Shown: one piece after another, positions 5,128 through 53,978 of the stretch | Position numbering within the stretch: the first letter of the stretch is position 1 | How the letters are laid out: every line of letters starts with the position of its first letter | Assembly: GCA_964560085.1 (NCBI GenBank) | Contig: CAZLKF010000001.1 | Location: 184,794 to 248,793 of the forward strand | Length of the DNA stretch: 64,000 nucleotides | Source of the DNA: an uncultured Muribaculaceae bacterium | Lineage (GTDB): Bacteria > Bacillota_I > Bacilli_A > RF39 > UBA660 | Direction: 5' to 3' | Position numbers and translations under genes: made by a program | Notes under the pieces: model-generated | Told to the model about the DNA's origin: nothing | Databases searched by the model: none | Seen by the model: only the letters and a program-made list of their open reading frames with translations

Positions 5128-5150
5128 AAAATCCCACCTTTTAATGCAGT

Positions 5151-6595: not shown

Positions 6596-6649
6596 CTCAA
6601 TAATTATATAAATTTTATAGAATAGAAAATGTCAAAAAAAGTTATTAAA

Positions 6650-18939: not shown

Positions 18940-19491
18940 TTAAATGTCAACTGTTCTAATATCCGTCAAAATCCAATCATAATCAACAGCGTTATATGTT
19001 CTTCCACAATAAGCGCACTTGCCATCATAATTAGCATTAATATTGGCACCACATCCTGGACACTTTTTAGCGTCGTGTTCCTTCTTCACTACTCTTTTTT
19101 TAGTAAATGTCAAATAATTATTTTTCATAATTCGACTTTCATCTTGACCAGCAACTATTTTTCCTTCACTAGACATTATATAATCAATTGCTTTTGAAAC
19201 AATTATTACTCTTATAATAAATTGATCTTCAAGAATATTAATATCTTCTATTTCCGTCGAAGTCACATTTAGTTGCTCATACATCTGAATTTGGTTATTT
19301 TTGATCAAATTATCAACATAAGTAACATATTTGTTGTAAACTTCATCGCTTAAGAAATGACGAACTTTTAACATATCTTTCATCATTATGGAAGTCATCA
19401 ACATAACAAATACATTATCTACTTTGGTTTTAAACATACTTGTTGAAAATGTTTCATCTAGTTTTTGTAATTCTTCTACCATTATTCCCAA
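18940..19491 (-). CDS. Tim44-like domain protein with C-terminal zinc ribbon (cytoplasmic paralog)
   Basis: C-terminal CPGCGANINANYDGKCAYCG zinc ribbon; domain homologous to the C-terminal half of the adjacent 280-aa protein. Confidence 0.4.
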   Translation of the reverse strand: MGIMVEELQKLDETFSTSMFKTKVDNVFVMLMTSIMMKDMLKVRHFLSDEVYNKYVTYVDNLIKNNQIQMYEQLNVTSTEIEDINILEDQFIIRVIIVSKAIDYIMSSEGKIVAGQDESRIMKNNYLTFTKKRVVKKEHDAKKCPGCGANINANYDGKCAYCGRTYNAVDYDWILTDIRTVDI

Positions 19492-20324
19492 CCTTGACCT
19501 TTCTTTTCTTTCTTTGTCATTATTAAGTCATGATGTGAAGAAACTATTGTTGAATTGCAATAACTACAAATATTTGATGCTTGATTTGCAATTGGTGCTC
19601 CACAATTTGGACATTTACCATTATTTGCGTCTTTTGTCATTGTAAATGTTAACTCATAATGCATCAACATTCGACGTGCATCAGTACCTTTGATAACTTT
19701 ATTCTGAGCATCAATAACATAATCTTTTTGGGCAACAACTAATTCTAGTTTTATTGTCACCAAATCATTATCCGCATATATATCAGTTATTGCAATGTCT
19801 CTTTTAATAAAATCACTCATTACATTTTTTTGATTCTTCATCTTCAATGTTTCAAGTTGCATTTTATACATATTAAACATTTCATCAGATGTATATTTTT
19901 GCATAGTTTCATAATCGAAATTAGTCCAAGCAATTTGAATATTTTTATAGATTTCAAAAACTTGATCTTGTATTTCGACAGGTGTTAGATCAGTTAACTG
20001 CTTAATTTTAATTGAATCTTCATAATGATTTGTAATCGAAGATTTATGTGACGAACTTTGAACATTGTTTTTATTTTTAGAATAAATTATAGCTACTATA
20101 ATTATGATTACCACCAATAAAACAAATGAGCCTGGGGTTAATTCGCCACCTGATCCTGAATAATCACCACCAAAGTCAAAGTCAAAATCACCACCACTAT
20201 AACCGCCACCATAATCACTATCCCAGCCTGAATCAGCTTTAACACTTAAAGCTAAAATTGAAAAGCAAGTCATTACTGATAATACAAATAGCAAAATTGT
20301 TGAATACTTATGATTTTTTTTCAT
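19482..20324 (-). CDS. Membrane-anchored Tim44-like domain protein with Gly/Asp-rich ectodomain and C-terminal zinc ribbon
   Basis: Signal/TM, then GWDSDYGGGYSGGDFDFDFGGDYSGSGG, TM VLLVVIIIIVAIIY, Tim44-like domain, then CPNCGAPIANQASNICSYC. Confidence 0.4.
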   Translation of the reverse strand: MKKNHKYSTILLFVLSVMTCFSILALSVKADSGWDSDYGGGYSGGDFDFDFGGDYSGSGGELTPGSFVLLVVIIIIVAIIYSKNKNNVQSSSHKSSITNHYEDSIKIKQLTDLTPVEIQDQVFEIYKNIQIAWTNFDYETMQKYTSDEMFNMYKMQLETLKMKNQKNVMSDFIKRDIAITDIYADNDLVTIKLELVVAQKDYVIDAQNKVIKGTDARRMLMHYELTFTMTKDANNGKCPNCGAPIANQASNICSYCNSTIVSSHHDLIMTKKEKKGQGWE

Positions 20325-21906
20325 TACTTCTTATCCCCAATCCATTAATATATTTCCTCTTTACAATGATGTAAATACAAAATCCGGCAATCAAGAAATT
20401 TTCTATTCCTAAAATAATTGACCAAATATTAATCTCATTTTTTATACTTGTTCGTGAAATAAAATAATTATTATTTTGATAAGCAATTTCAATATAACCA
20501 TCATTTACTTCTATATTATCATCTTGAAGTTTAATTTTCAAATCATAATAATAAAGTTTTGTTTTTAAAACATCCTGACCAACAAATATTTTTAATTTCG
20601 TTTTTGTTTTATTAGGATTATCATTTGAGAAATAAAATGCTTCTGCATAATTAGTGGCTTTTTCTATTTCATTTTGGTATATATTATTAAAATTCAAAGT
20701 TGTGATAAATTCTTCATCTGTTAAAATATCTGAATTTAATATATGCCAAGCATATACTAATTTATCATTTTCATAATACGAAAATATAACATTCTTATTA
20801 GAATTTTTTATCATTTCTAATTGTTCTTTAGTTATTACTTGATCTTTTAAAACCATTACTTCAATTGTTTCTTTTGTAGTCGTAGAACTAATAGAAGCAA
20901 ACTTATCAATCGTTATCTGTGGATTATCATCAGTTCTCTTTACCTTCAAAACATATTTGTTAATTGATCCATCCTCTGCTTCAACGGTAATTGTAATTTC
21001 ATTCATTCCAACTACTAAATCAGTATTACTTATCTCAACTTTTGACTTTGTATCATTAGCAATTGCTGTAACGTTTAATTTTGATATCTCGTTGTTAACT
21101 GATAAAGAATATTCGTTAACATTACTTACAAAATCTAATTCATAACCATCAATCGTCAAAGATTTTAAAGTATTATTATTTGATTGAGCAAAACTTAAAC
21201 CATTCTTATCTAAGCGAATGACATTCAAAGTATATGTTTTAGTTGAACCATTTTCAGCTGTAACAATAATCTTAAATGAATTATTGTAAATATTTAACTT
21301 CTTTGTACCTGTTCCTTTAACTGTTGCTAAGGCAGATGATGGTGAGGCAGTAATATTGATAGTTGAAACATCATTATTAACAGTAATTTTGTAATTTGTA
21401 GTTGAAGATTTAAAATTGGTAATTGTTTTACCATCAATTTTTAAGTCATCTAAATTATTATCAGTTGATTTCATTTTTATAGTTATTTTTGATGTCCCAC
21501 CACTTACAGTTTTCATATTGCTAGTTCCTGTGACATTTGTAATAGAAACTATGGTTGATTCCCCTATTTTAAAATTTGCTTTAGCTTTAAATTTTAAGGT
21601 TGCATAGGTAAATGTTCCACTTTTACCATCAGTTGAATCTACAACAATGTTTGTTCCAACTGTCAGATTAAAACCATTACTTCCGTTTGAAGACACTAGT
21701 TCCAATTTATCTTTATCATAATTTAGAGTCGCTTTCAAACCAATTAAATTACTTGCCGACGTTGCTTTAAAAGTTAAAGTAATAGTTCCTCCACTTGCAA
21801 TGCCTGTACTTCCACTGATAGATGTTGTAAAATCTGCTGCCATAATTTCGGGAATATTAAAATTAATAATAACAAGTAAAAAAATTATTTTTAAAAATCT
21901 TTTCAA
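20308..21906 (-). CDS. Membrane-anchored cohesin-like + cadherin-like repeat protein (mini-scaffoldin/anchor)
   Basis: Signal peptide; N-terminal ~135 aa with a cohesin-like pattern (GGTITLTFKATSAS...LNYDKDKLELVS...GTFTYATLKFKAK); three cadherin-like beta-sandwich repeats (LKSLTIDGYELDFVSNVNEYSLSV...); C-terminal TM IILGIENFLIAGFCIYIIV followed by KRK. Confidence 0.55.
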   Translation of the reverse strand: MKRFLKIIFLLVIINFNIPEIMAADFTTSISGSTGIASGGTITLTFKATSASNLIGLKATLNYDKDKLELVSSNGSNGFNLTVGTNIVVDSTDGKSGTFTYATLKFKAKANFKIGESTIVSITNVTGTSNMKTVSGGTSKITIKMKSTDNNLDDLKIDGKTITNFKSSTTNYKITVNNDVSTINITASPSSALATVKGTGTKKLNIYNNSFKIIVTAENGSTKTYTLNVIRLDKNGLSFAQSNNNTLKSLTIDGYELDFVSNVNEYSLSVNNEISKLNVTAIANDTKSKVEISNTDLVVGMNEITITVEAEDGSINKYVLKVKRTDDNPQITIDKFASISSTTTKETIEVMVLKDQVITKEQLEMIKNSNKNVIFSYYENDKLVYAWHILNSDILTDEEFITTLNFNNIYQNEIEKATNYAEAFYFSNDNPNKTKTKLKIFVGQDVLKTKLYYYDLKIKLQDDNIEVNDGYIEIAYQNNNYFISRTSIKNEINIWSIILGIENFLIAGFCIYIIVKRKYINGLGIRSNEKKS

Positions 21907-24900
21907 TTTAATTCCTCCAATCCAGCCAAAAATCTTCTTAAAATGACCAAATCCGTTATATCAACTTCTTTATCTTTATTTAAGTCAGCTGCAAGTAAAT
22001 TTTGATCATTCAATATTTCTATTCCTGCTAAATGTCTTCTCAAAATAACTAAATCTGTTATATCAACTTCCTCGTCAGCATTAACATCTGCTAGTTTAAT
22101 ACTACTCCATTTTGCATAAAGCGTAATGTTGTTTGTTGGTATATACTGAATATCTTTTCCAACAAAATTTGTCAAATCCGCATCACTATACCAACCTATA
22201 AAATTTTTAGTTGAATCAAATGAACTAATGTCTGGTAAAGTAAGTGACGTCATCTGCCAGGTAGCTGTTAATTTACTGTTTTTAAAGCCAAAAGTATAAT
22301 TTGAATCCGCTAATGAACCAGATCCTGTTAAAATCCATTTTAAGAAAGTATGTTGAATAGGTGTTTTCATATTTTCTTTGTTTAAAACATTATAAACAAA
22401 TTCAACTTCAGTTGCATATACTGGATTGGCAATTGCAACAACCTCCAAAGAATTTTTTGTATATTTAAATTCATTTAAATCATTATATGTTCCTTTATTA
22501 GGATCGATTTCTAAATCAAAATAAACGGAATCATCAATAACATAAACCAATACTCCTGCAGCATAACGTTCTCTTAAGGCAGTAACAACAATTCTAGCAA
22601 CTCCATTACCAATGCCAGTAATTACTCCATTATCAACAGTGGCAACAGAAGAATCACTACTGCTCCACGTATATTTTGGAACTCGCATGAAATTTTTTAA
22701 AGTTGGTGTTATAGCAACTGTATTTTCCCCATTTTTATATAAAGTTACTTGAGATTTATCAAGTGTTAAGCCTGCATTTGTATCTTTAATAACCAAATCA
22801 ATTTGATCGCGACAATTATCGACTTCAATTGTAATTGTTACATTCCCCGCTTTTAAAGCTTTAACTACTCCATTTTGATCAACTGTTGCAATACTTGGAT
22901 TACTACTTGACCAAGATAAGTTACTAATTGCTGATCCTACTGGTGATACTTCAAAATTCAATTGCAGTTCATTAAAGACATTTCGATATATTGTTTGAGT
23001 TTCCTCTATAATATCGACCAGTCCGACTGTCACAATTGGTCCAACAATAATGGGGATACTCCGTTCAATAACATCATTTACAATCATTGTTATTGTTGCA
23101 TTGCCAATATGTACTGCTTCAATTAAACCTGTGTTAGAAACTGTTGCAATACTTGAATTACTACTTTTAAATTCTAATGACGTAATTGTTAATTTAGAAT
23201 CAATTACATAAGACAACTGATAACTAGGAAGTTCATTTATATCAAGTTCTACCAATTCACCATCTAATTCAACTTCAAAAAAGTTTTCATTAAATGTTAA
23301 GAAATAATTCTCTTTTTGAAAAGTGCTAGGAAATTTTATTATGCTATTAGAAGTCCCATTGATTACATAATTGTCAACCATTAAACTACGTTCACCATAT
23401 TTGTTAAAAAGATAAAGAGGAAGTTTTGTTCCTGAACTAATATTACGATATATAAATTGATGTTCGAAATTTGAACCCGTATACGTAAATTCACTTTCCT
23501 CTGTATAGATAGTCTCACTATTATTAGTCGTAAAGGCATTTAGTTCAGTACCAATAATTCCATTCAAACTTACTACTTTAATGGAAAACTCTGAATCATT
23601 TAATTCAATATCATCAATATCAACTGTTGCTAAACCAGGATAATTTGTTGTAACTGTTTTTATTAATTGATACCCACTAGTTGATGAATTTTTAACATAA
23701 ACCTCATATTTGCCATTAATTGATTCATGTGTAAAATTAACTCGTACCATTTTTTCAGAAAAATCTTTTGCTTTATCATAAGTTACTTCTATGGAATTTC
23801 GATTAGTAACAATACTTCCACTTTTTGTATAATCATAAATATTGTCCCAATTACGATACTTGACTTCTGTCACACCATTTACATCATAATATAATGACGA
23901 ATAAGCAAGATAAGTATAAGGGACGTAAGAACCCCAAGAATTTTTTAATATCCAAGCCCCAACACCAGCATAATCATCATTCCAACCAATAATAGACATT
24001 GCATGATAATTATACCCTTTATTACAATCCTCAGTTTCGTTTATCATATTGAGTTCATAATTATAACAAGTTCCCGCTTGATCGACAGCTGGTGACAATG
24101 CTGAAACATAAAGTGAACCATAATTCTTTATATGATCTTTTAACACTGCTCGATATTGTTCTTGCGTTATATTATCTTCATAATTTGCACTACCATAAAT
24201 ATTATAACCAGTTACTTGATATGCGACATTTTCAGAGTTTATAACTTCACTAAGATTTCGTTGATTTGATGAAGTGTCATAGTTACCCCAAATGTTTTCT
24301 TCAATTGGAGCCACCCCACTATTCAAATAAGTGGAAGCCAAGTTAAAATTACCACCACTCCCTAGCTCATGATTAGTTATCGAGTACGGGTTTTTTACTT
24401 CTTTGATTGAATTATCCGAAATCAAATAATCAATCTGACGCTCTGCAAAGTTAACTTGGGTGGTTTCCAACTGAGATACTAAAATGTTTGTTTCAATTGA
24501 TGAATAAGTAGCAAAAGCCCAACAAAGACCAAGTGTTGATTGGTTTTTAATTTTTGTGACATAATTGTCATCAGCCAAATTGTAGTAAGATGATGTAGAA
24601 GTAGAAATGTTATTGTCATATGTATAGTCCCACGTATAAGTTTCTGGTATAACTTCAACTCTTTTTTGATCAGCCGGTGACATTGCTAAATAATCAACAT
24701 ATTTAGGGTTTAAATATAATTGACCATTTTTCTTATTTTTTTCAGTTAAAACTTTTTTCCCGGATTCAGCTTGCTTTAAAACATATTCCTTAGCTGAGTC
24801 TGGAAGATAACTATAAGCTTCATTTTTTAAATCAATAGTTACTTTATATTCTAAGTCATTCCAACAAAAAGAAATTATTCCTAGAATAATTGTCAAAAGT

Positions 24901-24929
24901 GGCAAAAAAATCAAAACTTTCTTCTTCAT
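21903..24929 (-). CDS. Secreted C1 (papain-family) cysteine peptidase with Big_2 repeats and C-terminal type-I dockerin
   Basis: Signal peptide; catalytic Cys motif NQSTLGLCWAFAT and His region HAMSIIGWND...NSWG; several Big_2 Ig-like domains; C-terminal duplicated Ca-binding segments DVNADEEVDITDLVILRRHLAG / ADLNKDKEVDITDLVILRRFLAG. Confidence 0.7.
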   Translation of the reverse strand: MKKKVLIFLPLLTIILGIISFCWNDLEYKVTIDLKNEAYSYLPDSAKEYVLKQAESGKKVLTEKNKKNGQLYLNPKYVDYLAMSPADQKRVEVIPETYTWDYTYDNNISTSTSSYYNLADDNYVTKIKNQSTLGLCWAFATYSSIETNILVSQLETTQVNFAERQIDYLISDNSIKEVKNPYSITNHELGSGGNFNLASTYLNSGVAPIEENIWGNYDTSSNQRNLSEVINSENVAYQVTGYNIYGSANYEDNITQEQYRAVLKDHIKNYGSLYVSALSPAVDQAGTCYNYELNMINETEDCNKGYNYHAMSIIGWNDDYAGVGAWILKNSWGSYVPYTYLAYSSLYYDVNGVTEVKYRNWDNIYDYTKSGSIVTNRNSIEVTYDKAKDFSEKMVRVNFTHESINGKYEVYVKNSSTSGYQLIKTVTTNYPGLATVDIDDIELNDSEFSIKVVSLNGIIGTELNAFTTNNSETIYTEESEFTYTGSNFEHQFIYRNISSGTKLPLYLFNKYGERSLMVDNYVINGTSNSIIKFPSTFQKENYFLTFNENFFEVELDGELVELDINELPSYQLSYVIDSKLTITSLEFKSSNSSIATVSNTGLIEAVHIGNATITMIVNDVIERSIPIIVGPIVTVGLVDIIEETQTIYRNVFNELQLNFEVSPVGSAISNLSWSSSNPSIATVDQNGVVKALKAGNVTITIEVDNCRDQIDLVIKDTNAGLTLDKSQVTLYKNGENTVAITPTLKNFMRVPKYTWSSSDSSVATVDNGVITGIGNGVARIVVTALRERYAAGVLVYVIDDSVYFDLEIDPNKGTYNDLNEFKYTKNSLEVVAIANPVYATEVEFVYNVLNKENMKTPIQHTFLKWILTGSGSLADSNYTFGFKNSKLTATWQMTSLTLPDISSFDSTKNFIGWYSDADLTNFVGKDIQYIPTNNITLYAKWSSIKLADVNADEEVDITDLVILRRHLAGIEILNDQNLLAADLNKDKEVDITDLVILRRFLAGLEELN

Positions 24930-24971: not shown

Positions 24972-25000
24972 AAATAAAAAAGACTTCCATTTGAAGTCTT
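24972..25000 (-). terminator. Rho-independent terminator
   Basis: AAGACTTC-CATTT-GAAGTCTT hairpin followed by a T-run on the minus strand. Confidence 0.45.
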
Positions 25001-25862
25001 ATAATTTATTTCCGCAGTTAGTACAGAATTTTCCAGTTACTGGATTACCACAATTTGAGCAAAATTTTATTTCATTTTGATTATTTACTACTTCTTTTTG
25101 GTTATGATCTAAAAGTAATAAATAAAATTTCGTTTGTGCTAAGTACAAGCGTGGTGTTAGAAAAATCATTAAAACAACTAATACTATTAAAAAAAGTATT
25201 GTTATTATAAGAAATGTTCCTGAAAATTGAAAAAGAGTTGCTAATATTTTTTCATTAGTTAAATTATTTATATATGCTTCCGCTGCAAACCTAGTTATAT
25301 TAATAATTAACAATATAAAATATACAACTACTGCTACTATATATTGCCAAGAATATGATAATAGTAATGAAAATGCTTGCCCTTTATAACCCCTTAATGC
25401 ATTTGTTACTTTATCATATACATCTTTAACACTGATTGTTGGGTCTAAAGCAAACATATATAAAATTCCCATATAAATAATCGTTGCTATTACTCCTGGC
25501 ACAATTAGTAATAAAAAGCCAATGCTTATTGCAAGAGTACCTATTAAGCCAACTAAAAATAATTTCCCAAAATATTGATAATAACTAAAGATAATTTCGA
25601 TACTTGCATTTTCATCTTTTGCTATATTAATAACATATTTATAAAGTCCAACAACCATTGGTGTTGAAATTGCAGTAGTTATAATTGCTAACACTGATGA
25701 TAAAGTATCATTCGAATCAACTAATAATCCAGTTAATAGTCCAACAACAGAAGATATGACGCCTAGTATTAATGAATATAAAATTGTCATCCCAACAATA
25801 CGAGCGCCATTACCTTTCACTTTTTCCCCGACAAATTTTTTAATTTCATAATTTTTTTGCAT
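24999..25862 (-). CDS. Polytopic membrane protein (DUF975-like) with C-terminal double Cys-x2-Cys zinc ribbon
   Basis: Six or more TM helices; C-terminus FCSNCGNPVTGKFCTNCGNKL. Confidence 0.5.
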   Translation of the reverse strand: MQKNYEIKKFVGEKVKGNGARIVGMTILYSLILGVISSVVGLLTGLLVDSNDTLSSVLAIITTAISTPMVVGLYKYVINIAKDENASIEIIFSYYQYFGKLFLVGLIGTLAISIGFLLLIVPGVIATIIYMGILYMFALDPTISVKDVYDKVTNALRGYKGQAFSLLLSYSWQYIVAVVVYFILLIINITRFAAEAYINNLTNEKILATLFQFSGTFLIITILFLIVLVVLMIFLTPRLYLAQTKFYLLLLDHNQKEVVNNQNEIKFCSNCGNPVTGKFCTNCGNKL

Positions 25863-41198: not shown

Positions 41199-42707
41199 TT
41201 AATTAATAGGTTCAGTACTAACCCAATAATATTCACCAGTAGTATTTTTAGCAAATGTATGTTTATACTTTTTTGCATAGTTTTTTACTGAATATACTTC
41301 CTTTATTTCGTCTTCGTTCACTTTTACAACATTGCCCGTCGTTTTATCCGTGACTAAACCTTTGTCAATACATTTTATATCACCGATTTTTTCAACAGAA
41401 TCTGAATATGCATAAATTGTTCCAATTATAGAGTCTTTTTGGCAATAATCATATTCATAGTCTTCATCTATTAAAGTGGTTAGTTTTGGTTGGTAGTTAT
41501 CATGAATTTTTACATATCCTATTGAATCTTCACTATATAAGTAAATGTAATTACCTTCTTCTATAGCAGATGTTATAGTTGGTGATGTATATTCACATAT
41601 CTCCGTTTTTTCTTGAACACCACCTACTACACCATCATATAAACCAAGGCCACTAAATCCCGAACCATAATTAAAATATCCTGTTATAACTGTTAATTCT
41701 TTCGGCATTTTTATTGATGATGTATTATAAATTTTAACTAATGTTTTTTTTAACTCTTCCAAAGTTATAGATGGTTTATCTTCACAAACATATTTAGAAT
41801 TGTTTAAAATAGTACTGTAATAAGAAATAAGCAATAAGTTTTCATATGACAAATCTTTATATGTTACTTTTTTTGATTGATAAGTTGTAAATGGTAAATT
41901 GTAATATGTTGATGAAATATAAGTCATTAACTTTTTGACTGTAGCATTTGTTAATGATAATTCCTTTATTGGCGCAACAACAATGATTGTCCTTGTTGCA
42001 GTTGCAACCTCAGTTGCACTATTAGTAACTGAATAAGTCAATGTATATTTGCCGGCAACATTGCTATTTACCTTACCAGTTATTACTACATTTGATGATA
42101 AGTCTCCTTCTTTTGTATCTTTAGCAATATATCCTGGTTCAACATACGTTTCATCTTTATTAATGACCGCAATTTCTTCACCTTTTAATTCTAATGTTAA
42201 TGTTGTTTCTTTTGATACAACAGTTACTTTTCTCGTCAATGATGAGGTTAAAGAATCACTGTCAGTGACACTATATAAAATAGTATAGAATCCTGCTTTT
42301 TCAGAATTAACCGTTCCTTCAATTACAACTTTTCCTGTAATATCACCATCTTTATCATCATTGGCTTGATATCCAGGGTCAACGTAAGCTTCCCCTTCAG
42401 TTAAAGTAATTGAATTTTCACCAATTAATACTAATGTTGGTGCCACTTTGGATACTGGTTGTTGTTCTTTCTTTGATGCTAAAATCAAATATGTAACTAC
42501 TCCAGCTAATATTAAAACTAATATTGCTAAGATTATAACTAATAAATTATTATTGTTTCGACGATTATTCTCTTCACTTTGAGGTTCAAAATGATCTTTT
42601 TGATTATTACTATAGTCTTCAATTTTTACTTCATTTGTTGAAACATTCGTTATATTTTCTTGTACCTTTTCATTTTTTTCAATATTTGTATTTTGTTTTT
42701 CTCCCAT
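41199..42707 (-). CDS. Type-II membrane-anchored surface protein, two DUF5011-type Ig-like domains + variable C-terminal domain (paralog A)
   Basis: Likely start MGEKQN at 42707 (RBS GGAG); Asn-rich cytoplasmic tail, TM LLVIILAILVLILAGVVTYLILA, two Ig-like modules (YVDPGY...DGD(I/L)...GTVNS..AG.Y.(I/L)(L/T)YSVT), then a divergent C-terminal domain. Confidence 0.6.
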   Translation of the reverse strand: MGEKQNTNIEKNEKVQENITNVSTNEVKIEDYSNNQKDHFEPQSEENNRRNNNNLLVIILAILVLILAGVVTYLILASKKEQQPVSKVAPTLVLIGENSITLTEGEAYVDPGYQANDDKDGDITGKVVIEGTVNSEKAGFYTILYSVTDSDSLTSSLTRKVTVVSKETTLTLELKGEEIAVINKDETYVEPGYIAKDTKEGDLSSNVVITGKVNSNVAGKYTLTYSVTNSATEVATATRTIIVVAPIKELSLTNATVKKLMTYISSTYYNLPFTTYQSKKVTYKDLSYENLLLISYYSTILNNSKYVCEDKPSITLEELKKTLVKIYNTSSIKMPKELTVITGYFNYGSGFSGLGLYDGVVGGVQEKTEICEYTSPTITSAIEEGNYIYLYSEDSIGYVKIHDNYQPKLTTLIDEDYEYDYCQKDSIIGTIYAYSDSVEKIGDIKCIDKGLVTDKTTGNVVKVNEDEIKEVYSVKNYAKKYKHTFAKNTTGEYYWVSTEPIN

Positions 42708-42740
42708 ATAAATCTCCAAATCTAATACAAAATTAAACTT
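41953..42740. repeat. Direct repeat copy 1 (~0.79 kb, ~98-99% identical to 43417..44204)
   Basis: Covers the 5' end plus RBS of paralog A; the offset to copy 2 is exactly 1464 bp; the identical antisense 79-aa ORFs 42049..42288 and 43513..43752 in the track are a by-product of the repeat. Confidence 0.85.
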
Positions 42741-42773
42741 CACATATTATATTACATTAAAGTTATGCAACTA

Positions 42774-44171
42774 CTATTTTACAATTTCACTACTTACAAA
42801 ATAATAATCATTGTTATCATTATATTTCTTAAACGTATGCTTATAATAAGGAACACTTACATCTTCATATATTGTTTCATTTAAAATTGAATATAGGTTG
42901 TTATCTGATGGTGGATAGCAATATGTTTCACCTATTTTAATTTTGAGTTCACTATCAGCATAGGCATATTTGATTACACCCTCAGAATCACAATTATCAA
43001 AAGTTCCTCCTTGCTCAACATTTAAATTAGTATTTTTTTCTTCGACATACTTATCATAAATATATATATAATCGCCATCTTGAATAGCAGCTGACAATAA
43101 AGATGTATCTAAAGTTAATCCTTTGTTACCATTTTGCCACTTCTTTGTAGCATTGTCATAGGTTATATCTGTTTGATCAAATAAAACTTTAGTAGTAGTT
43201 GGAATACTAATGTTTGTTACATTATACATTTTTTTTAAACAGTCTGTAAGTTCTTTATTTGTCATTTCCGAATCGTTGTCGCAACTATAAAAAGCAGCAG
43301 CGAGCATTGCTTCTTTTTTTAATTCTTTATAAGTGATTTTTTTAGTTTGATGATTATTAAGCGTTCCAGAATAATAATTAACAATACTATACAATTTTTT
43401 TACTAATTGATCATTAATTGATAATTCCTTTATTGGCGTAACAACAATGATTGTTCTTGTTGCAGTTGCAACCTCAGTTGCACTATTAGTAACTGAATAA
43501 GTCAATGTATATTTGCCGGCAACATTGCTATTTACCTTACCAGTTATTACTACATTTGATGATAAGTCTCCTTCTTTTGTATCTTTAGCAATATATCCTG
43601 GTTCAACATACGTTTCATCTTTATTAATGACCGCAATTTCTTCACCTTTTAATTCTAATGTTAATGTTGTTTCTTTTGATACAACAGTTACTTTTCTCGT
43701 CAATGATGAGGTTAAAGAATCACTGTCAGTGACACTATATAAAATAGTATAGAATCCTGCTTTTTCAGAATTAACCGTTCCTTCAATTACAACTTTTCCT
43801 GTAATATCACCATCTTTATCATCATTGGCTTGATATCCAGGGTCAACGTAAGCTTCCCCTTCAGTTAAAGTAATTGAATTTTCACCAATTAATACTAATG
43901 TTGGTGCCACTTTGGATACTGGTTGTTGTTCTTTCTTTGATGCTAAAATCAAATATGTAACTACTCCAGCTAATATTAAAACTAATATTGCTAAGATTAT
44001 AACTAATAAATTATTATTGTTTCGACGATTATTCTCTTCACTTTGAGGTTCAAAATGATCTTTTTGATTATTACTATAGTCTTCAATTTTTACTTCATTT
44101 GTTGAAACATTCGTTATATTTTCTTGTACCTTTTCATTTTTTTCAATATTTGTATTTTGTTTTTCTCCCAT
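42774..44171 (-). CDS. Type-II membrane-anchored surface protein, two DUF5011-type Ig-like domains + variable C-terminal domain (paralog B)
   Basis: Start MGEKQN at 44171 (RBS GGGAG); the first ~260 aa are identical to paralog A except for one or two substitutions; the C-terminal domain is only distantly similar (YKHTF, YIYIY, YYFVSSE). Confidence 0.6.
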   Translation of the reverse strand: MGEKQNTNIEKNEKVQENITNVSTNEVKIEDYSNNQKDHFEPQSEENNRRNNNNLLVIILAILVLILAGVVTYLILASKKEQQPVSKVAPTLVLIGENSITLTEGEAYVDPGYQANDDKDGDITGKVVIEGTVNSEKAGFYTILYSVTDSDSLTSSLTRKVTVVSKETTLTLELKGEEIAVINKDETYVEPGYIAKDTKEGDLSSNVVITGKVNSNVAGKYTLTYSVTNSATEVATATRTIIVVTPIKELSINDQLVKKLYSIVNYYSGTLNNHQTKKITYKELKKEAMLAAAFYSCDNDSEMTNKELTDCLKKMYNVTNISIPTTTKVLFDQTDITYDNATKKWQNGNKGLTLDTSLLSAAIQDGDYIYIYDKYVEEKNTNLNVEQGGTFDNCDSEGVIKYAYADSELKIKIGETYCYPPSDNNLYSILNETIYEDVSVPYYKHTFKKYNDNNDYYFVSSEIVK

Positions 44172-44204
44172 ATAAATCTCCCATTCTAATATAATTTTTT
44201 TCAT
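43417..44204. repeat. Direct repeat copy 2
   Basis: Same as above; only a few SNPs at the 3' boundary (GCGCAAC vs GCGTAAC; TGTCCTT vs TGTTCTT). Confidence 0.85.
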
Positions 44205-44262: not shown

Positions 44263-45912
44263 TTAATTTTTTACAACTACCGCTGTTCCACTGCTATAAT
44301 CAACAATAACTGATTTATTCATATCATTAGCAAAGTACCTTGGAATACTTTTACTAAAATGAGTTATACAATTCACATAACTACCACCTAATCTTGATAC
44401 TGAGTTTGTAATAATCAATTGTTTAGCACTCAATATTTTTGCACTAGCATCAGTAACGCCACAAGATGAATAAGCATGATGTGGTATTTTAACAACATCA
44501 ACTTGGCCAATTACCTTGATAATTGGGGTCAAGATAGCTGATGTATATGAATCGGCGCCTAAGAATGTTTTGATATTACCTATTTGAATATATTGAACAA
44601 CTGAATTAACATTCTCATTTCCACCTTCATAATCTGATTGATTCATTCTTTGAACTGTATTATATAAAGTAATTTTCATTGCATCAAGATTAAAAGTATA
44701 TCCTTCACTTAATGTTTCGATATAAGTAATAGGAATCTTTCTATCAGTAGCTGCTGTTATAAACCAATTATAACGATTTCTTTGAGCATCACTACAACCT
44801 GCATCTTTACATAAATATGTTTTTATATAAACTTTCTTTACATTAATTCCACTTTTAATTATAGTTGCCCCACCACCAATATGATCAGCATGATTGTGGG
44901 TTATAAGAATAAAGTCCAAAGTGTTAACATTAAGACTTTCTAAATAGTTTTTAACTCTGTTCATATCGGCAGTATTAGTTAAACCAGTATCAATCATAGC
45001 ATAATGACCATTTGATTCTAATAAAATTGCATCGGCTGAATCTTGTACTTGTTTTATAAAATGAATTTTTATAGAATTTTTGACGGTAATTAAAGCTTTC
45101 GCTTCAAAATCACCATCAACTGTAATTGCTTTTATGGTTGCCGTGCCTTCTTTTAAAGCTTTTATTTTTCCTGACTTTACACTTACAACACTCTCATTGC
45201 TACTAGACCAAACAACACTTTTATTGCTAGCATCACTAGGAATGATTGTTGTCTTAATTGTTTTTTCATCGCCAACATACATTAAAATATTTTGTTCATC
45301 TAATGCTATTCCTGTTACTCTTCTTAAAACATTTACAGAGCAAGTAGTTACTATTTTCTCATCACTAGTTTTTGCAGTAATTATTGTTGTTCCCTTAGCT
45401 ATGCCTCTTATAATTCCATTTTCTACAGTAGCTATATTTTTATTGCTACTAGTCCACACCAATTCTTTATTGGTTGCATTATTAGGTATAATAGTTGCGG
45501 TTAATTTTATAGTTTCATCTTCACCTATACTGACTTTTTGACTACTAAGTTTGATTTCTGTTACTAAAACTTCTTTCTTTATTACGATGACACTAAATGT
45601 CAAAACTTGATCATTTAGATTGTTAGTTATTTCGATAATTGCGTTTCCTTCATTTATAGCTCTTACATTGCCTTGATAATCAGCAATTGCAATATTAGGA
45701 TTATGACTTTTATATGATAATTTATATTGTTTTCCCCCAGTTTTAGCAATAACTTTAATCTGTTCAATTTGATTGGTTTCTAAAGTTGTATATGTTTTTT
45801 CCAAAGAAAATTCATATGCTGTATTAGGATTGTTAGCAATTATTAAATATATAGCACAACCAATTAATGCTATTAATACTCCAGCACAAATTCTAAAAAT
45901 TTTTTCACTCAT
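44263..45912 (-). CDS. Membrane-anchored surface protein: three Big_2 Ig-like domains + C-terminal MBL-fold (ComEC-like) metallo-hydrolase
   Basis: N-terminal TM ICAGVLIALIGCAIYLII; Big_2 repeats (VTEIKLSSQKVSIGEDETIKLTATIIPNNATNKELVWTSSN...); MBL motif ILITHNHADHIGGG. Confidence 0.65.
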   Translation of the reverse strand: MSEKIFRICAGVLIALIGCAIYLIIANNPNTAYEFSLEKTYTTLETNQIEQIKVIAKTGGKQYKLSYKSHNPNIAIADYQGNVRAINEGNAIIEITNNLNDQVLTFSVIVIKKEVLVTEIKLSSQKVSIGEDETIKLTATIIPNNATNKELVWTSSNKNIATVENGIIRGIAKGTTIITAKTSDEKIVTTCSVNVLRRVTGIALDEQNILMYVGDEKTIKTTIIPSDASNKSVVWSSSNESVVSVKSGKIKALKEGTATIKAITVDGDFEAKALITVKNSIKIHFIKQVQDSADAILLESNGHYAMIDTGLTNTADMNRVKNYLESLNVNTLDFILITHNHADHIGGGATIIKSGINVKKVYIKTYLCKDAGCSDAQRNRYNWFITAATDRKIPITYIETLSEGYTFNLDAMKITLYNTVQRMNQSDYEGGNENVNSVVQYIQIGNIKTFLGADSYTSAILTPIIKVIGQVDVVKIPHHAYSSCGVTDASAKILSAKQLIITNSVSRLGGSYVNCITHFSKSIPRYFANDMNKSVIVDYSSGTAVVVKN

Positions 45913-50449: not shown

Positions 50450-51898
50450 TTATTCCGAAACAATTTTCTTTTTACGTTTCTTCTTTTTAAGTAAAAATGC
50501 CAAAATCCCTATTAATAAAAATTGAACAATAACTAATATTTCTAATATAGTAACATAAAGACCATTTTCTTTTTTTTCTGAACTTGATTCTTCAATTGGT
50601 TGCTCTTTTTTATCATCATCTTGTTTTTCGTCTTTTAAAATTTTAATTCTATATTCTTTATTAGTTCCATCCTCAGCAGTTATAGAAATTGTAATTATAC
50701 TATCATTTTTTAGGTTTTCATTTCCCGTAATAATATAATTTGCTTTCTCGCTTTCTAAAGTAACATTAATATCAAGTTTTTCTTCTTCGTTAATTTTTAA
50801 AGAATAATCTAAAGTGTTATTATCGAATGTCAAATCATAATTACTAATTTTTAAATCTGTGATATTAGTATTATCACTTAATATTTCTTTGATTCCTGCC
50901 CTTGTAATATTTAAAGTATATGTATTAATAGTTTTATTTTCGGCAGATACTTTAATTAATATTTTATTCAAACCTTCTTTTAATGACACTTCTCTATTTC
51001 CATAGTTGGTTACATAACTAGAAGTAGTATCTGTTAATGTGGACGTTATAGTTACTTTTTCAACTTCATTTAAAACCGTTAAATTATAGTTGTTGACACT
51101 TGAACTAAAATTTATTATTCCCTCACTTAACGACAATGTTTTTAAAGTGTTTACTTTGCTGCGGTTATCTTCTCTCTTAATATTCAAAGTATAGATTTTT
51201 TTTACACCTGATGCGCCAGTAACATTTACTTTAAATACATTCATTCCATAAGCTAAAGTTTTATTTCCAACCGAACCACTAATTGTTGCATTTGCATCTG
51301 TTGCCGTTGCTTCAATCAAAACACTTGTTGTTGTGGCTGGGAATGTTGCATTATAGCTAGTTTTATCACCGGCAAATCCAGCTATTTCTTCACCATTTAA
51401 ACTTAATGATGAAAGTGTGTTGACACTTGATAAAATATTTAATGAAAGAGTTCCACCAGTAACACTGACAGAATCACCATTCTTGTCAGTTGCAACAGGT
51501 TTAGTAAGTGTAATATTTGTATTGCCAAAAGCAGCATTATTATTGACTTTAAAAACTAATTTAACGATATTTTTTGATGTATCACTAATTAATTCATCAT
51601 AATTTAAGTTACCATAACTGAATTTTTTTCCATTTGTCACAGTAGCAAATGTTGTATAAGAAGCTGATAAAAGTTTTGTTTGACTACTCAAAGTTAAAAC
51701 ATCTGCATCCCAGCTAACAATTCCGTCGACTCCAGAAATAGTCGCTTCTGAACTAGTACGATTTAAATTTATGTAGATAGTTACATCTTCACCACGAGCA
51801 GCTTTTGTTGATCCAGTAGGTTTTAATGACATAGCTTCGATGTTTTTTAAACCAAGTAGCATTAGAAAAATAAGAAAAATTATTTTTTTACATCTCAT
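50450..51898 (-). CDS. Membrane-anchored cohesin-like + cadherin-like repeat protein (second mini-scaffoldin/anchor)
   Basis: Signal peptide; N-terminal cohesin-like module (GEDVTIYINLNRTS...WDADVLTLSS...IVKLVFKVNNNAAFG); cadherin-like repeats (LSSLSLNGEEIAGFAGDKTSYNATF..); C-terminal TM followed by KKKKRKKK. Confidence 0.55.
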   Translation of the reverse strand: MRCKKIIFLIFLMLLGLKNIEAMSLKPTGSTKAARGEDVTIYINLNRTSSEATISGVDGIVSWDADVLTLSSQTKLLSASYTTFATVTNGKKFSYGNLNYDELISDTSKNIVKLVFKVNNNAAFGNTNITLTKPVATDKNGDSVSVTGGTLSLNILSSVNTLSSLSLNGEEIAGFAGDKTSYNATFPATTTSVLIEATATDANATISGSVGNKTLAYGMNVFKVNVTGASGVKKIYTLNIKREDNRSKVNTLKTLSLSEGIINFSSSVNNYNLTVLNEVEKVTITSTLTDTTSSYVTNYGNREVSLKEGLNKILIKVSAENKTINTYTLNITRAGIKEILSDNTNITDLKISNYDLTFDNNTLDYSLKINEEEKLDINVTLESEKANYIITGNENLKNDSIITISITAEDGTNKEYRIKILKDEKQDDDKKEQPIEESSSEKKENGLYVTILEILVIVQFLLIGILAFLLKKKKRKKKIVSE

Positions 51899-51900
51899 AA

Positions 51901-53892
51901 CTAACCTCCATAAATTTCCTTCGCAATTTTCATAATATCACTTAGACTATATTCATAATCATTATTATAATCAGCAGCTAGCAAGAATTCACCCTTTAAA
52001 ATGTTTTCATCGGCATATAGATATTTAGCAAGTTTCATAATATCAGCAAGAGTTAATTCCCCGTCTCCATTAACATCGCCTTTTAAGATTATTTTATAAC
52101 GCGTTTCATCACCTTCAACATTAACGCTAACTCCAGTCTTCATATTATCTTCATCAGCTAATGTTTGTTCTAAAACATCAATTAATGTATAAGGTTGAAG
52201 TAAATTAAATGTTGTTTTAAATGTTTGTATATCCATTAAATCAACTATTTTAAAGTAAAAAGCAATATCTGGATTTTTAGCATTACAAGTGCGATAAGCA
52301 TCTCTTATTCTAGCATAATTGTTTGAATTTAATATTAAATTAACAATATCTAAACAATTATTAAAAATTCCTGATAAATTAACTGTTTCATTTAAAACAA
52401 AACTACTTAAGTTTAAAGTTACTAAACTAGTACAACCACTGAACATATAAGTCATAGTTGTAACATTGCTAGTGTTAATTCCATCCAAATTTAAATTTTC
52501 AAGATTCTTACAACCATTAAACATATAAGTCATGCTTGTTACTTTGGTAGTATTAAAATCGCTTAAATTTAAAGTTGTTAAAGAAATACAACCATTAAAC
52601 ATATAAGCCATGCTTAAGACATTACTTGTATTAAAATGTGATAAATTCAAAGTTTCAAGGTTTTTACAACCGCTAAACATATAAGCCATACTAGTAACAC
52701 TAATTGTATTAAAACTAGTCAAATCAATTACATTCAACGATGTACATCCATTAAACATATCATACATGGTTGTCACCTTTGCTGTGTTAAAACTACTTAA
52801 ATTCAAATTTGTTAAAGAAATACAATCACGAAACATAGCCGTCATATTTGTAACTTCGGTTGTATCAAAATTAACTAGATTCAACATTGTTAATTTTTGA
52901 CAATCACGAAACATGCTTTCCATTGTTGTAACTTTACTCGTATTAAATGAACTCAAATTCAAAATAGACATATTGCTACATCCATTAAACATACTTTCCA
53001 TACTGATAACATTGGTAGTGTCAAAATTAAAAGTCAAAGTTGTTAAAGATGCACAATCATTAAACATATAGGCCATATTTGTAACTTTACTCGTATTAAA
53101 ACTGCTTAAATCTAAAGTTGTTAAAGAAGTGCATCCGTTAAACATACTAACCATATTTATAACATTTATTGTATTAAAACCAGTTAAATTTAAAGTTTTT
53201 AAACTCGTCAAACGATAAAACATGCTTTCCATAGTTATTACATTGTTTGTATCAAAATGACTTAAATCTAGGTTTTCTAAACCACTAGCTCTACTGAACA
53301 TATAAGCCATATTTGTAACTTTGCTTGTATTAAATGAACTCAAATTTAAGGTTATTAAACTACTACATTTATAAAATATGCTTTCCATATTTATAACATT
53401 ACTTGTGTTAAAATTGGTAAGATCTAAATTATTGAGTTTAGAGTCTCCACTAAACATACTTTCCATATTTATAACATTAATTGTATTTATGTTAGCAAAT
53501 GTAATATTTTCTAAATTTGTGAAACCTTTAAACATAATAGAAGAATTAGTTGGAAAATTAATGACTGCAGTACTACCAACATACATAATATAATTGTTTG
53601 TTACTTGATTGACTTCTAACCAAACAAAAACTTTTTCATCGCTCATTGTTAAATCTGTAATATCTTCTTTTATAAGAGCATTTGTATATTTTAAATTTAA
53701 GTTTTCATTTGTATCATTAATGAAATTAATTGTTTCAATTTTTGTTTTTTCTTGTTCAATTGCAACTGGCCAAAACAAACTTGAGGAATTTCTTTTCATG
53801 TAGCTTTCAGCAAATACCTTTGAAATTGATGCAAAAGAAAATAATGATATAAGAAAAAATATTGACAAAAATTTAGAAATAGATAATCTCAT
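51901..53892 (-). CDS. Secreted BspA-type leucine-rich-repeat protein with C-terminal dockerin
   Basis: Signal peptide; about 15 tandem ~23-aa LRRs (NLxxFNTSxVTNMxxMFxxCxSLTxL); C-terminus GDVNGDGELTLADIMKLAKYLY...AADYNNDYEYSLSDIMKIAKEIYG (two Ca-binding dockerin segments). Confidence 0.65.
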   Translation of the reverse strand: MRLSISKFLSIFFLISLFSFASISKVFAESYMKRNSSSLFWPVAIEQEKTKIETINFINDTNENLNLKYTNALIKEDITDLTMSDEKVFVWLEVNQVTNNYIMYVGSTAVINFPTNSSIMFKGFTNLENITFANINTINVINMESMFSGDSKLNNLDLTNFNTSNVINMESIFYKCSSLITLNLSSFNTSKVTNMAYMFSRASGLENLDLSHFDTNNVITMESMFYRLTSLKTLNLTGFNTINVINMVSMFNGCTSLTTLDLSSFNTSKVTNMAYMFNDCASLTTLTFNFDTTNVISMESMFNGCSNMSILNLSSFNTSKVTTMESMFRDCQKLTMLNLVNFDTTEVTNMTAMFRDCISLTNLNLSSFNTAKVTTMYDMFNGCTSLNVIDLTSFNTISVTSMAYMFSGCKNLETLNLSHFNTSNVLSMAYMFNGCISLTTLNLSDFNTTKVTSMTYMFNGCKNLENLNLDGINTSNVTTMTYMFSGCTSLVTLNLSSFVLNETVNLSGIFNNCLDIVNLILNSNNYARIRDAYRTCNAKNPDIAFYFKIVDLMDIQTFKTTFNLLQPYTLIDVLEQTLADEDNMKTGVSVNVEGDETRYKIILKGDVNGDGELTLADIMKLAKYLYADENILKGEFLLAADYNNDYEYSLSDIMKIAKEIYGG

Positions 53893-53949
53893 TACATCAC
53901 ATCCTCATATTCTACAATGTCAGTATAACATTATAGAACGTTTTTGTAA

Positions 53950-53978
53950 ACCAAAAAAGTCATGTTGAGCATGGCTTT
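53950..53978 (-). terminator. Rho-independent terminator
   Basis: AAGTCATG-TTGAG-CATGGCTT (one mismatch) followed by a T-run on the minus strand. Confidence 0.4.

What the first reader, a model, noticed from the sequence alone, without database searches (positions are those of the whole stretch)
50450..53892. Cohesin-dockerin two-gene module II: dockerin-tagged BspA-type LRR protein + second cohesin/cadherin-like anchor
The 663-aa protein has a signal peptide, about 15 BspA-like leucine-rich repeats, and a C-terminal dockerin (GDVNGDGELTLADIMKLAKYLY ... AADYNNDYEYSLSDIMKIAKEIYG). It is followed with a 2-nt gap by a 482-aa protein with a cohesin-like N-terminus, cadherin-like repeats and a C-terminal TM anchor plus poly-Lys. 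The gene order (cargo then anchor) is identical to module I although the cargo is unrelated. That argues for a modular, recurring surface-display system rather than coincidence.
Basis: partly seen in the sequence, partly recalled or inferred. Interest (0 to 1): 0.7.

Follow-up and report, generated by a model that had tools for sequence, protein, structure and literature searches.

The report
Two-gene cohesin–dockerin surface display cassette
A gut bacterium encodes a secreted repeat protein with a dockerin "plug" immediately followed by a membrane-anchored stalk with a cohesin "socket"; the same paired layout recurs in related uncultured gut bacteria, so cellulosome-type parts appear to be reused here to display adhesin-like proteins and proteases rather than to digest fibre.

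Summary
On the minus strand, a 663-aa gene (51901-53892) is followed after 2 nt by a 482-aa gene (50450-51898).

- **Cargo (663 aa):** signal peptide, 14 clear 26-residue DUF285/PARCEL repeats, and a C-terminal Dockerin_1 above Pfam's cutoff. An AF2 model of the tail matched dockerins in 32 of 33 PDB hits.
- **Anchor (482 aa):** signal peptide, an N-terminal cohesin, three cadherin-like domains, a C-terminal TM helix and a poly-Lys tail, with no LPXTG. The cohesin scores 38 bits in Pfam when scanned alone. Its AF2 model has pLDDT 96, and the top 33 PDB hits are all cohesins.
- **Module I** (20308-24929) has the same layout with a papain-like protease as cargo.
- **Recurrence:** a dockerin gene abuts the anchor gene in 10 of 23 related gut/rumen loci from other genomes. 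Cargo varies, and dockerin subtype tracks cohesin subtype.
- **Coupling:** the anchor's GGAGG ribosome site lies in the dockerin's last codons.
- **Fusions:** some homologues join DUF285 directly to the cadherin-like stalk and TM helix, with no cohesin or dockerin.

This is a non-cellulosomal, one-to-one display cassette in a walled, low-GC uncultured Bacilli lineage. I rate it a new variant of a known kind and moderately interesting. Binding itself is inferred, not shown.

The parts
53922..53950 (-). Promoter-like site (TTTACA-17-TATACT with an extended TG) 30 nt upstream of the cargo gene start. It is a candidate promoter for the two-gene unit.
   Evidence: Consensus scan only. The count of such sites in the region is not above the shuffled expectation, so this is weak evidence.
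51901..53892 (-). Cargo gene: 663-aa secreted DUF285/PARCEL repeat protein with a C-terminal dockerin.
   Evidence: ORF; Pfam DUF285 E 2e-124 and Dockerin_1 at 26.7 bits; TIGR02167 PARCEL repeat at 376 bits.
53809..53892 (-). Signal peptide of the cargo, aa 1-28 (...SKVFA|ESY).
   Evidence: Hydropathy peak at aa 3-28. The A-x-A-like cleavage motif was read from the sequence.
52312..53511 (-). Array of 26-residue DUF285/PARCEL repeats, about aa 128-527: 14 clear units plus one degenerate unit.
   Evidence: Regular 26-residue spacing of the V-x-x-M-x-x-M-F motif; 12 stretches matched by TIGR02167.
51904..52083 (-). Type I-like dockerin, aa 604-663. It has two Ca-loop plus helix segments (DVNGDGELTLADIMKLAKYLY and DYNNDYEYSLSDIMKIAKEIY) with matching residues at positions 10, 11, 17 and 18.
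   Evidence: Pfam Dockerin_1 above gathering score; AF2 pLDDT 87 with three helices; 32 of 33 PDB matches are dockerins; internal symmetry 12 of 22 residues.
51905..51909 (-). GGAGG Shine-Dalgarno for the anchor gene, lying inside the last two Gly codons of the cargo gene, 6 nt before the ATG.
   Evidence: Sequence read. The same arrangement is seen in module I and in L002, L007, L010, L011, L022 and L024.
50450..51898 (-). Anchor gene: 482-aa type I membrane protein made of cohesin, three cadherin-like domains, a TM helix and a poly-Lys tail.
   Evidence: ORF; domain evidence listed under the parts below.
51833..51898 (-). Signal peptide of the anchor, aa 1-22 (...KNIEA|MSLKPTG).
   Evidence: Hydropathy. 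The V/I-x-A|M junction is conserved across 21 orthologues.
51425..51832 (-). Single N-terminal cohesin domain, aa 23-158.
   Evidence: Pfam Cohesin at 38.2 bits, E 2e-9, scanned alone; profile hits 1g1k, 2vn5 and 2jh2; AF2 pLDDT 96.2; top 33 Foldseek PDB hits are all cohesins.
50624..51424 (-). Three cadherin-like beta-sandwich domains, about aa 159-425, forming the stalk.
   Evidence: Pfam PF12733, three stretches, E 3.7e-22.
50453..50560 (-). C-terminal TM helix (aa 447-470, LYVTILEILVIVQFLLIGILAFLL) and basic tail KKKKRKKKIVSE. No LPXTG motif precedes the helix.
   Evidence: Hydropathy peak of 2.83 at aa 445-473; sequence read.
21903..24929 (-). Module I cargo: 1008-aa protein with signal peptide, Peptidase_C1, three Big_2 domains, Flg_new and a dockerin.
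   Evidence: Pfam; sequence.
20308..21906 (-). Module I anchor: 532-aa protein with cohesin, two cadherin-like domains, an unassigned region and a TM helix. Its TTG start overlaps the cargo's TGA stop, and a GGAGG lies 7 nt upstream.
   Evidence: Pfam Cohesin at 28.1 bits, scanned alone; BLASTP against the 482-aa protein, 30% identity, E 5e-27; junction sequence.

Best explanation
This is a self-contained, two-gene, non-cellulosomal cohesin-dockerin surface display cassette.

**Proposed mechanism**
- Both proteins are exported through Sec signal peptides.
- The 482-aa protein stays in the membrane through its C-terminal helix, with the poly-Lys tail inside the cell. Its three cadherin-like beta-sandwich domains form a stalk that reaches through the peptidoglycan wall. 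The single N-terminal cohesin sits at the outer tip.
- The 663-aa DUF285/PARCEL repeat protein is probably an adhesin or ligand-binding surface protein. It docks on that cohesin through its C-terminal Ca2+-binding dockerin and is displayed non-covalently.
- The two genes are translationally coupled, because the anchor's GGAGG ribosome site lies in the dockerin's last codons. This favours matched production of the two partners.
- Each cassette carries its own matched cohesin-dockerin subtype, so module II and module I (protease cargo) are probably private pairs rather than one shared scaffold.

**Shown versus inferred**
- Shown: gene order, domain identities, predicted folds, conservation of the pair, and the existence of fusion versions.
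- Inferred: actual binding, its specificity, surface location and what the cargo binds.
For: **Domain identity**
- Dockerin.
- Cohesin.
- Cadherin-like stalk, TM helix, basic tail and absence of LPXTG.

**Conservation of the gene pair**
- Of 23 related loci from other genomes (19 from GTDB species genomes plus L002, L022, L023 and L024), 10 carry a Dockerin_1 gene abutting the 5' end of the anchor gene. These are L002, L003, L004, L007, L008, L009, L010, L011, L022 and L024, with gaps of -26 to +8 nt.
- L014 has a dockerin gene 14 nt upstream of the anchor. L017 has one just downstream of the anchor.
- Cargo varies: DUF285, LRR_4, Peptidase_C1, Flg_new, Big_2, DUF11, or no recognised family.

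**Matched subtypes**
- The six loci with an A1-type cohesin and an upstream dockerin all carry the same 'DIMK...IYKGG' dockerin subtype, although their cargo differs.
- Across 12 pairs, cohesin identity and dockerin identity correlate: Mantel r = 0.86, with 0 of 5000 permutations reaching that value.
- The two window dockerins differ at the canonical recognition positions: L-A and A-K in module II, I-T and R-R in module I.

**Other support**
- Rosetta-stone fusions: P0108 and P0036 join DUF285 directly to the same cadherin-like stalk and TM helix, with no cohesin or dockerin.
- Translational coupling: the GGAGG sits in the terminal dockerin codons in both window modules and in six loci.
- The organism has a wall, so a stalk makes sense: Mur ligase, PASTA kinase, FemAB and GH25 are present.
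Against: - There is no binding, expression or localisation data.
- The Mantel correlation is confounded by shared ancestry of orthologous pairs.
- About half of the cohesin-type anchors in the related loci have no adjacent dockerin gene (L006, L013, L015, L018-L021).
- Two loci (L008, L017) have a dockerin gene beside an anchor whose N-terminus looks like Big_2, not cohesin.
- Pfam does not report the cohesin when the full-length protein is scanned.
- The adhesin role of DUF285/PARCEL repeats comes from family annotation and the literature (PMC2996958), not from any test here.
Confidence: 0.78

Rival explanations
1. The system is shared or promiscuous. The two window dockerins bind either cohesin, or further cohesins elsewhere in the genome, so the anchors act as general docking posts and gene adjacency is only an expression convenience.
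For: - Both cohesins and both dockerins are type I-like and match the same PDB families.
- Cross-reactivity among type I pairs is known in cellulosomal species (general knowledge).
- About half of the related cohesin anchors have no adjacent dockerin gene, so some partners must be encoded elsewhere.
Against: - The window dockerins share only 36% identity and differ at positions 10, 11, 17 and 18 (L-A and A-K against I-T and R-R). The cohesins share about 29% identity.
- Dockerin subtype follows cohesin subtype across loci whatever the cargo.
Confidence: 0.12
2. The modules do not interact. The dockerin-like segment is only a Ca2+-stabilised C-terminal module, as in many Bacteroidota proteins that lack cohesin partners, and the cohesin-fold domain binds some other ligand. 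The two genes would then simply be neighbouring surface protein genes.
For: - Many DUF285 homologues carry dockerin-like tails in lineages not known to have cohesins.
- L008 and L017 have dockerin genes beside anchors with no detectable cohesin.
Against: - The tight gene pairing is conserved in 10 of 23 related loci and in both window modules, with the ribosome site embedded in the dockerin.
- Dockerin and cohesin subtypes vary together.
- Fusion proteins replace exactly the cohesin-dockerin link.
Confidence: 0.07
3. This is a minimal cellulosome or amylosome, that is, a polysaccharide-degrading complex.
For: The cohesin and dockerin folds most resemble cellulosomal type I modules from C. acetobutylicum, C. 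cellulolyticum and C. thermocellum.
Against: - No dockerin-bearing glycoside hydrolase or CBM was found in the window or in any cassette examined. Cargos are repeat or adhesin-like proteins and papain-like proteases.
- Each anchor has one cohesin, and there is no SLH or sortase anchoring.
- The only glycoside hydrolase in the window is a GH25 lysozyme without a dockerin.
Confidence: 0.03

Closest known systems
Single-cohesin anchoring proteins OlpA and OlpC of Clostridium thermocellum (PDB 3ul4, 4dh2)
   Same: One type I cohesin on a cell-bound protein captures a dockerin-bearing protein directly at the cell surface, with no multi-cohesin scaffoldin. Both structures are among the fold matches.
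   Different: OlpA and OlpC are wall-anchored through SLH domains, serve cellulosomal enzymes, and are not encoded as a pair with their partner (my own knowledge). Here the anchor is a C-terminal TM helix with a cadherin-like stalk, the cargo is non-enzymatic or a protease, and the partner gene is fused into a translationally coupled pair.
Non-cellulosomal cohesin-dockerin pairs of Clostridium perfringens glycosidases and toxins (NagJ/NagH; PDB 2jh2, 2ozn, 2vo8) and of Archaeoglobus fulgidus (2xdh)
   Same: Cohesin-dockerin modules used outside fibre degradation. These are among the best structural and profile matches.
   Different: In C. perfringens the modules link secreted enzymes to each other, not to a dedicated membrane stalk (my own knowledge). 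Cargo, host lineage and gene organisation all differ.
Dockerin-bearing LRR proteins and peptidases of Ruminococcus flavefaciens FD-1 (PMC2930009)
   Same: The same cargo classes on dockerins. That genome's 222 dockerin proteins include 28 LRR modules and 16 peptidase modules.
   Different: Those proteins plug into a large multi-scaffoldin cellulosome that is anchored by sortase (my own knowledge). Here the pairs are one-to-one cassettes in Bacilli-class MAGs. The 'CPxxA..C' cohesins in related loci do resemble R. flavefaciens ScaB cohesins.
PARCEL / DUF285 surface lipoproteins of Mycoplasma, such as LppQ (PMC2996958)
   Same: The same 26-residue repeat family (TIGR02167 / PF03382) displayed on the cell surface.
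   Different: The mycoplasma proteins are held by an N-terminal lipid anchor. That paper does not mention dockerins (0 occurrences). Here the repeat protein has no anchor of its own and depends on a dockerin.

Membership tests
Dockerin type I (Pfam PF00404) | Profile score above the curated gathering score | tested here: met
   26.7 bits against 22.9, aa 604-660. Module I scores 41.4 bits.
Dockerin type I (Pfam PF00404) | Two duplicated segments of about 22 residues, each a 12-residue Ca2+-binding loop (D/N at positions 1, 3, 5 and D at 12) followed by a helix | tested here: met
   DVNGDGELTLAD and DYNNDYEYSLSD, each followed by IMK[LI]AK; 12 of 22 residues are identical between the two segments.
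Dockerin type I (Pfam PF00404) | Three-helix fold with paired F-hand loops | tested here: met
   AF2 pLDDT 87.4 with helices at 26-37, 45-51 and 61-72 of the modelled piece. 32 of 33 Foldseek PDB matches are dockerins, for example 2ccl_B at rmsd 1.5 A. E-values are weak (0.06 and above) because the domain is small.
Dockerin type I (Pfam PF00404) | Ca2+-dependent binding to a cohesin | not testable with these tools
Only indirect support from synteny and co-variation.
Cohesin (Pfam PF00963) | Profile score above the curated gathering score | tested here: met
   38.2 bits against 24.1 for aa 23-158 scanned alone; 28.1 bits for module I. Caveat: not reported in the full-length scans.
Cohesin (Pfam PF00963) | Nine-stranded beta-sandwich (jelly-roll) cohesin fold | tested here: met
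   AF2 pLDDT 96.2, all-beta. The top 33 Foldseek PDB hits are all cohesins, E down to 3e-9, TM 0.66-0.79. The family profile hits 1g1k at E 3e-4, plus 2vn5 and 2jh2.
Cellulosome / scaffoldin system | Scaffoldin with several cohesins, usually with a CBM | tested here: not met
   One cohesin per anchor in both window modules, and no CBM.
Cellulosome / scaffoldin system | Dockerins carried by carbohydrate-active enzymes | tested here: not met
   Cargos are DUF285, LRR, Peptidase_C1, Big_2, Flg_new and DUF11. No GH, CE or PL domain was found on any dockerin protein examined.
Cellulosome / scaffoldin system | Wall attachment through SLH domains or a sortase LPXTG signal | tested here: not met
   No SLH hit. 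No LPXTG precedes the C-terminal helix in the window anchors or in the orthologues read.
BspA-type LRR (Pfam LRR_5, PF13306) | Match to the LRR_5 profile | tested here: not met
   LRR_5 is not among the hits at E <= 0.1 for the 663-aa protein. The L002 orthologue does match it at 63 bits, and NCBI names homologues 'BspA family'.
DUF285 / PARCEL repeat surface protein (PF03382, TIGR02167) | Tandem 25-26-residue repeats matching the family profiles | tested here: met
   DUF285 at 408.8 bits; TIGR02167 at 375.8 bits in 12 stretches; 14 units at 26-residue spacing.

The most novel reading that the evidence does not exclude
Uncultured low-GC gut Bacilli carry a family of portable, translationally coupled cargo-dockerin and cohesin-stalk cassettes. 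Each would have a private, mutually orthogonal cohesin-dockerin specificity, and cargo such as PARCEL/LRR adhesins and papain-like proteases could be swapped onto a conserved plug. That would amount to a natural set of orthogonal surface display pairs used for host or particle attachment rather than fibre digestion.
Probability: 0.45. Interest if true: 0.6.

Novelty: new variant of a known kind. Interest (0 to 1): 0.45.

Why it matters
- **Reach of the system.** Cohesin-dockerin biology is mostly framed around cellulosomes in Clostridia. This case suggests the same plug-and-socket is used as a general display device in poorly known, uncultured gut and rumen Bacilli. One rumen survey detected no cohesins or dockerins in Tenericutes (PMC6487960).
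- **New wiring.** The layout differs from known systems: one cohesin, a cadherin-like stalk, a plain TM anchor, and a translationally coupled partner gene.
- **Annotation gap.** Databases label the anchors only as 'cadherin-like' proteins, because the cohesin is missed in full-length scans. A class of surface architecture in gut MAGs is therefore under-annotated.
- **Possible use.** If the pairs are orthogonal, they are ready-made parts for synthetic surface display. They also point to candidate adhesins and proteases for host interaction in these organisms.

Tried and rejected
- **Homologue search with the dockerin tail alone.** The 106-aa query returned nothing. This was a wasted capped search. 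The dockerin alignment had to be built from DUF285 homologues instead.
- **Genome-collection scans.** The A1 alignment was too variable to give patterns. The single-protein scan found no relative, so the window's own genome is apparently not a GTDB species representative. The A2 alignment worked.
- **Organism name.** The exact-sequence look-up gave no accession or name. There is no rRNA, tRNA or Rfam family in the window. The taxon rests only on relatives' record titles: uncultured Bacilli, Tenericutes, Erysipelotrichaceae, Ca. Coprovivens and Clostridium sp. CAG:710.
- **AFDB fold search.** The library was not available.
- **Narrow cohesin HMM.** The HMM built from A1 missed the divergent cohesins. 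A broader HMM and hhalign were needed.
- **Wall-less host.** I considered that the organism is Mollicutes-like and wall-less, which would explain the TM anchor. I rejected this because Mur ligase, PASTA kinase, FemAB and GH25 are in the window.
- **Sortase substrate.** Rejected because there is no LPXTG motif.
- **Literature.** No paper in the library links DUF285/PARCEL to cohesin-dockerin display, or describes cohesin-dockerin systems in these lineages.


Full report
**1. What is in the sequence**

The junction reads TAT GGA GGT TAG tt ATG. This confirms the 2-nt gap. It also shows a GGAGG Shine-Dalgarno for the second gene inside the last two Gly codons of the first.

The window has about 28% G+C, and nearly every gene is on the minus strand. 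The module sits in core chromosome. An NrtR-like regulator, a small membrane protein and a Clp ATPase lie upstream. The rpsL-rpsG-fusA-tuf operon lies directly downstream.

**2. The cargo (663 aa)**

- It has an N-terminal signal segment.
- It has 14 clear repeats spaced exactly 26 residues apart, plus one degenerate unit.
- The repeats match Pfam DUF285 (E 2e-124) and NCBIfam TIGR02167, 'PARCEL repeat-containing surface protein' (376 bits, 12 stretches).
- Pfam's BspA-type LRR_5 is not hit, although NCBI names close homologues 'BspA family LRR surface protein'.
- The C-terminus matches Dockerin_1 above the gathering score (26.7 against 22.9 bits).
- It has two Ca-loop plus helix segments, DVNGDGELTLADIMKLAKYLY and DYNNDYEYSLSDIMKIAKEIY.
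- An AF2 model of aa 590-663 has pLDDT 87 and three helices. 32 of its 33 PDB matches are dockerins, with rmsd down to 1.4-1.5 A.

**3. The anchor (482 aa)**

- It has a signal peptide.
- Its N-terminal domain (aa 23-158) scores 38.2 bits against Pfam Cohesin (gathering score 24.1) when scanned alone. It is not reported when the full protein is scanned.
- A profile of 21 orthologous domains hits the solved cohesins 1g1k, 2vn5 and 2jh2.
- The AF2 model is very confident (pLDDT 96.2). Its top 33 PDB matches are all cohesins, with TM 0.66-0.79. The best is the C. acetobutylicum CohA2 complex, which also supplies the best dockerin match.
- Three cadherin-like beta-sandwich domains follow, then a charged linker, a 24-residue hydrophobic helix and KKKKRKKK.
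- No LPXTG or SLH is present.

**4. Module I**

Genes 21903-24929 and 20308-21906 have the same layout with a different cargo. The cargo carries Peptidase_C1, Big_2, Flg_new and a dockerin at 41.4 bits. The anchor has a cohesin (28.1 bits when scanned alone), cadherin-like domains and a TM helix. The two anchors align over the N-terminal domain and the stalk at 30% identity, E 5e-27. Here the anchor's TTG start overlaps the cargo's TGA stop, and a GGAGG again lies in the dockerin's last codons. A broad cohesin HMM and a dockerin HMM find no other copy of either module in the 64 kb.

**5. Relatives**

The anchor has 270 homologues. All are from metagenomes or MAGs, and where named they are called only 'cadherin-like beta sandwich domain-containing protein'.

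A scan of one genome per species found 19 loci. All are in gut or rumen MAGs titled uncultured Bacilli, Tenericutes, Erysipelotrichaceae, Ca. Coprovivens or Clostridium sp. CAG:710. With four further metagenome loci (L002, L022, L023, L024), that makes 23 related loci from other genomes.

- In 10 of the 23 a Dockerin_1 gene abuts the 5' end of the anchor gene, with gaps of -26 to +8 nt. L014 has one 14 nt upstream, and L017 has one just downstream.
- Cargo differs between loci: DUF285, LRR_4, Peptidase_C1, Flg_new, Big_2, DUF11, or no recognised family.
- The terminal Gly-Gly / GGAGG overlap recurs in six loci.
- Many anchors have a 'CPxxA..C' N-terminal domain that Pfam misses. It is nevertheless homologous to the cohesin profile (hhalign probability 94.9%, E 4e-8) and hits R. 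flavefaciens ScaB cohesins.
- The tight cohesin subfamily is small: 20 representatives at E <= 1e-30 among 1.84 billion.

**6. Evidence that the two modules work together**

- **Matched subtypes.** The six loci that have an A1-type cohesin and an upstream dockerin all carry the same 'DIMK...IYKGG' dockerin subtype, whatever the cargo.
- **Co-variation.** Across 12 pairs, cohesin identity and dockerin identity correlate (Mantel r = 0.86, 0 of 5000 permutations). Shared ancestry inflates this figure.
- **Different recognition residues.** The two window dockerins differ at the canonical recognition positions (L-A and A-K against I-T and R-R). Each is internally symmetric, as in dual-binding type I dockerins.
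- **Fusions.** P0108 and P0036 are single chains with DUF285 repeats joined directly to the same cadherin-like stalk and TM helix, without cohesin or dockerin. This is a Rosetta-stone argument that cargo and stalk form one functional unit.

**7. Context**

The organism makes peptidoglycan. Mur ligase, a PASTA kinase, FemAB, a GH25 lysozyme and an MBOAT/DHHW pair are in the window. A membrane-rooted stalk that lifts the cohesin through the wall is therefore a sensible reading. No CAZyme carries a dockerin here, so this is not a cellulosome.

**8. Comparison with known systems**

Non-cellulosomal cohesin-dockerin pairs are well established, and LRR and peptidase cargos on dockerins are documented in R. 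flavefaciens FD-1 (PMC2930009). PARCEL/DUF285 proteins are known as mycoplasma surface lipoproteins, with no mention of dockerins (PMC2996958). What differs here:

- the host lineage;
- the single cohesin on a cadherin-like stalk with a plain TM anchor;
- the one-to-one, translationally coupled gene pair;
- the matched subtype in each cassette.

I found no paper in the library describing this arrangement. One rumen survey detected no cohesins or dockerins in Tenericutes (PMC6487960).

**9. Limits**

- Binding, specificity and surface location are inferred.
- About half of the related cohesin anchors lack an adjacent dockerin gene.
- Two dockerin-adjacent anchors lack a recognisable cohesin.
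- The organism's exact taxon could not be fixed.

**Verdict.** This is a new variant of a known kind, of moderate interest.

Noticed in passing
window 50450-51898 and 20308-21906: Pfam Cohesin is not reported when the full-length anchor proteins are scanned, but it is above the gathering score when the N-terminal domain is scanned alone. This probably explains why public records call these proteins only 'cadherin-like beta sandwich domain-containing protein'.
   Followed up: partly
window 41199-42743, 42774-44204, 44263-45912 (minus strand): A further cluster of surface proteins lies just downstream of the str operon. Two are tandem, N-terminally TM-anchored proteins with two Bact_surface_Ig-like domains and an unassigned C-terminal domain. 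The third is a 549-aa protein with three Big_2 domains and a metallo-beta-lactamase fold. None has a dockerin.
   Followed up: partly
window 18940-19491 and 19482-20324 (minus strand): Two Tim44-like (PF04280) proteins with C-terminal Cys4 zinc ribbons lie directly downstream of the module I anchor gene. The first overlaps the anchor gene by 17 nt and has a Gly/Asp/Ser-rich segment and a TM helix. They may be co-transcribed with module I.
   Followed up: no
window 11277-13928 (minus strand); window 3503-6059 (minus strand): An 883-aa ORF has no Pfam family (only a weak Big_13 hit). Three consecutive ORFs of 236, 305 and 302 aa have no Pfam family and sit beside an ABC ATPase gene.
   Followed up: no
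window 51905-51909 and about 21913-21917; L002, L007, L010, L011, L022, L024 just upstream of the anchor starts: The C-terminal Gly-Gly (or Glu-Glu) codons of the dockerin genes double as the GGAGG ribosome-binding site of the anchor gene. The protein's C-terminus and the translation signal therefore constrain each other.
   Followed up: yes
L013, L015, L018, L019, L020, L021: A subfamily of cohesin / cadherin-like / TM anchors has no adjacent dockerin gene. It carries a long acidic cytoplasmic tail after the TM helix, and a conserved gene of about 237 aa lies about 1.5 kb upstream.
   Followed up: no
L009, about 6341-8500: This anchor appears to carry two cohesin-like domains (aa 34-147 and 210-340 by a local HMM). 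Its adjacent dockerin protein is small (282-aa ORF) and has no other Pfam family.
   Followed up: no
L008 and L017: A dockerin-bearing gene lies next to a cadherin-like/TM anchor whose N-terminal domain looks like Big_2 rather than cohesin. Either the cohesin is very divergent or the partner is encoded elsewhere.
   Followed up: partly
window 1-64000: No tRNA gene and no Rfam family were found in 64 kb. GC skew is negative throughout, and almost all genes are on the minus strand.
   Followed up: yes
window 24999-25862 (minus strand): A DUF975 multi-pass membrane protein with a C-terminal double CxxC zinc-ribbon tail lies immediately upstream of module I.
   Followed up: no
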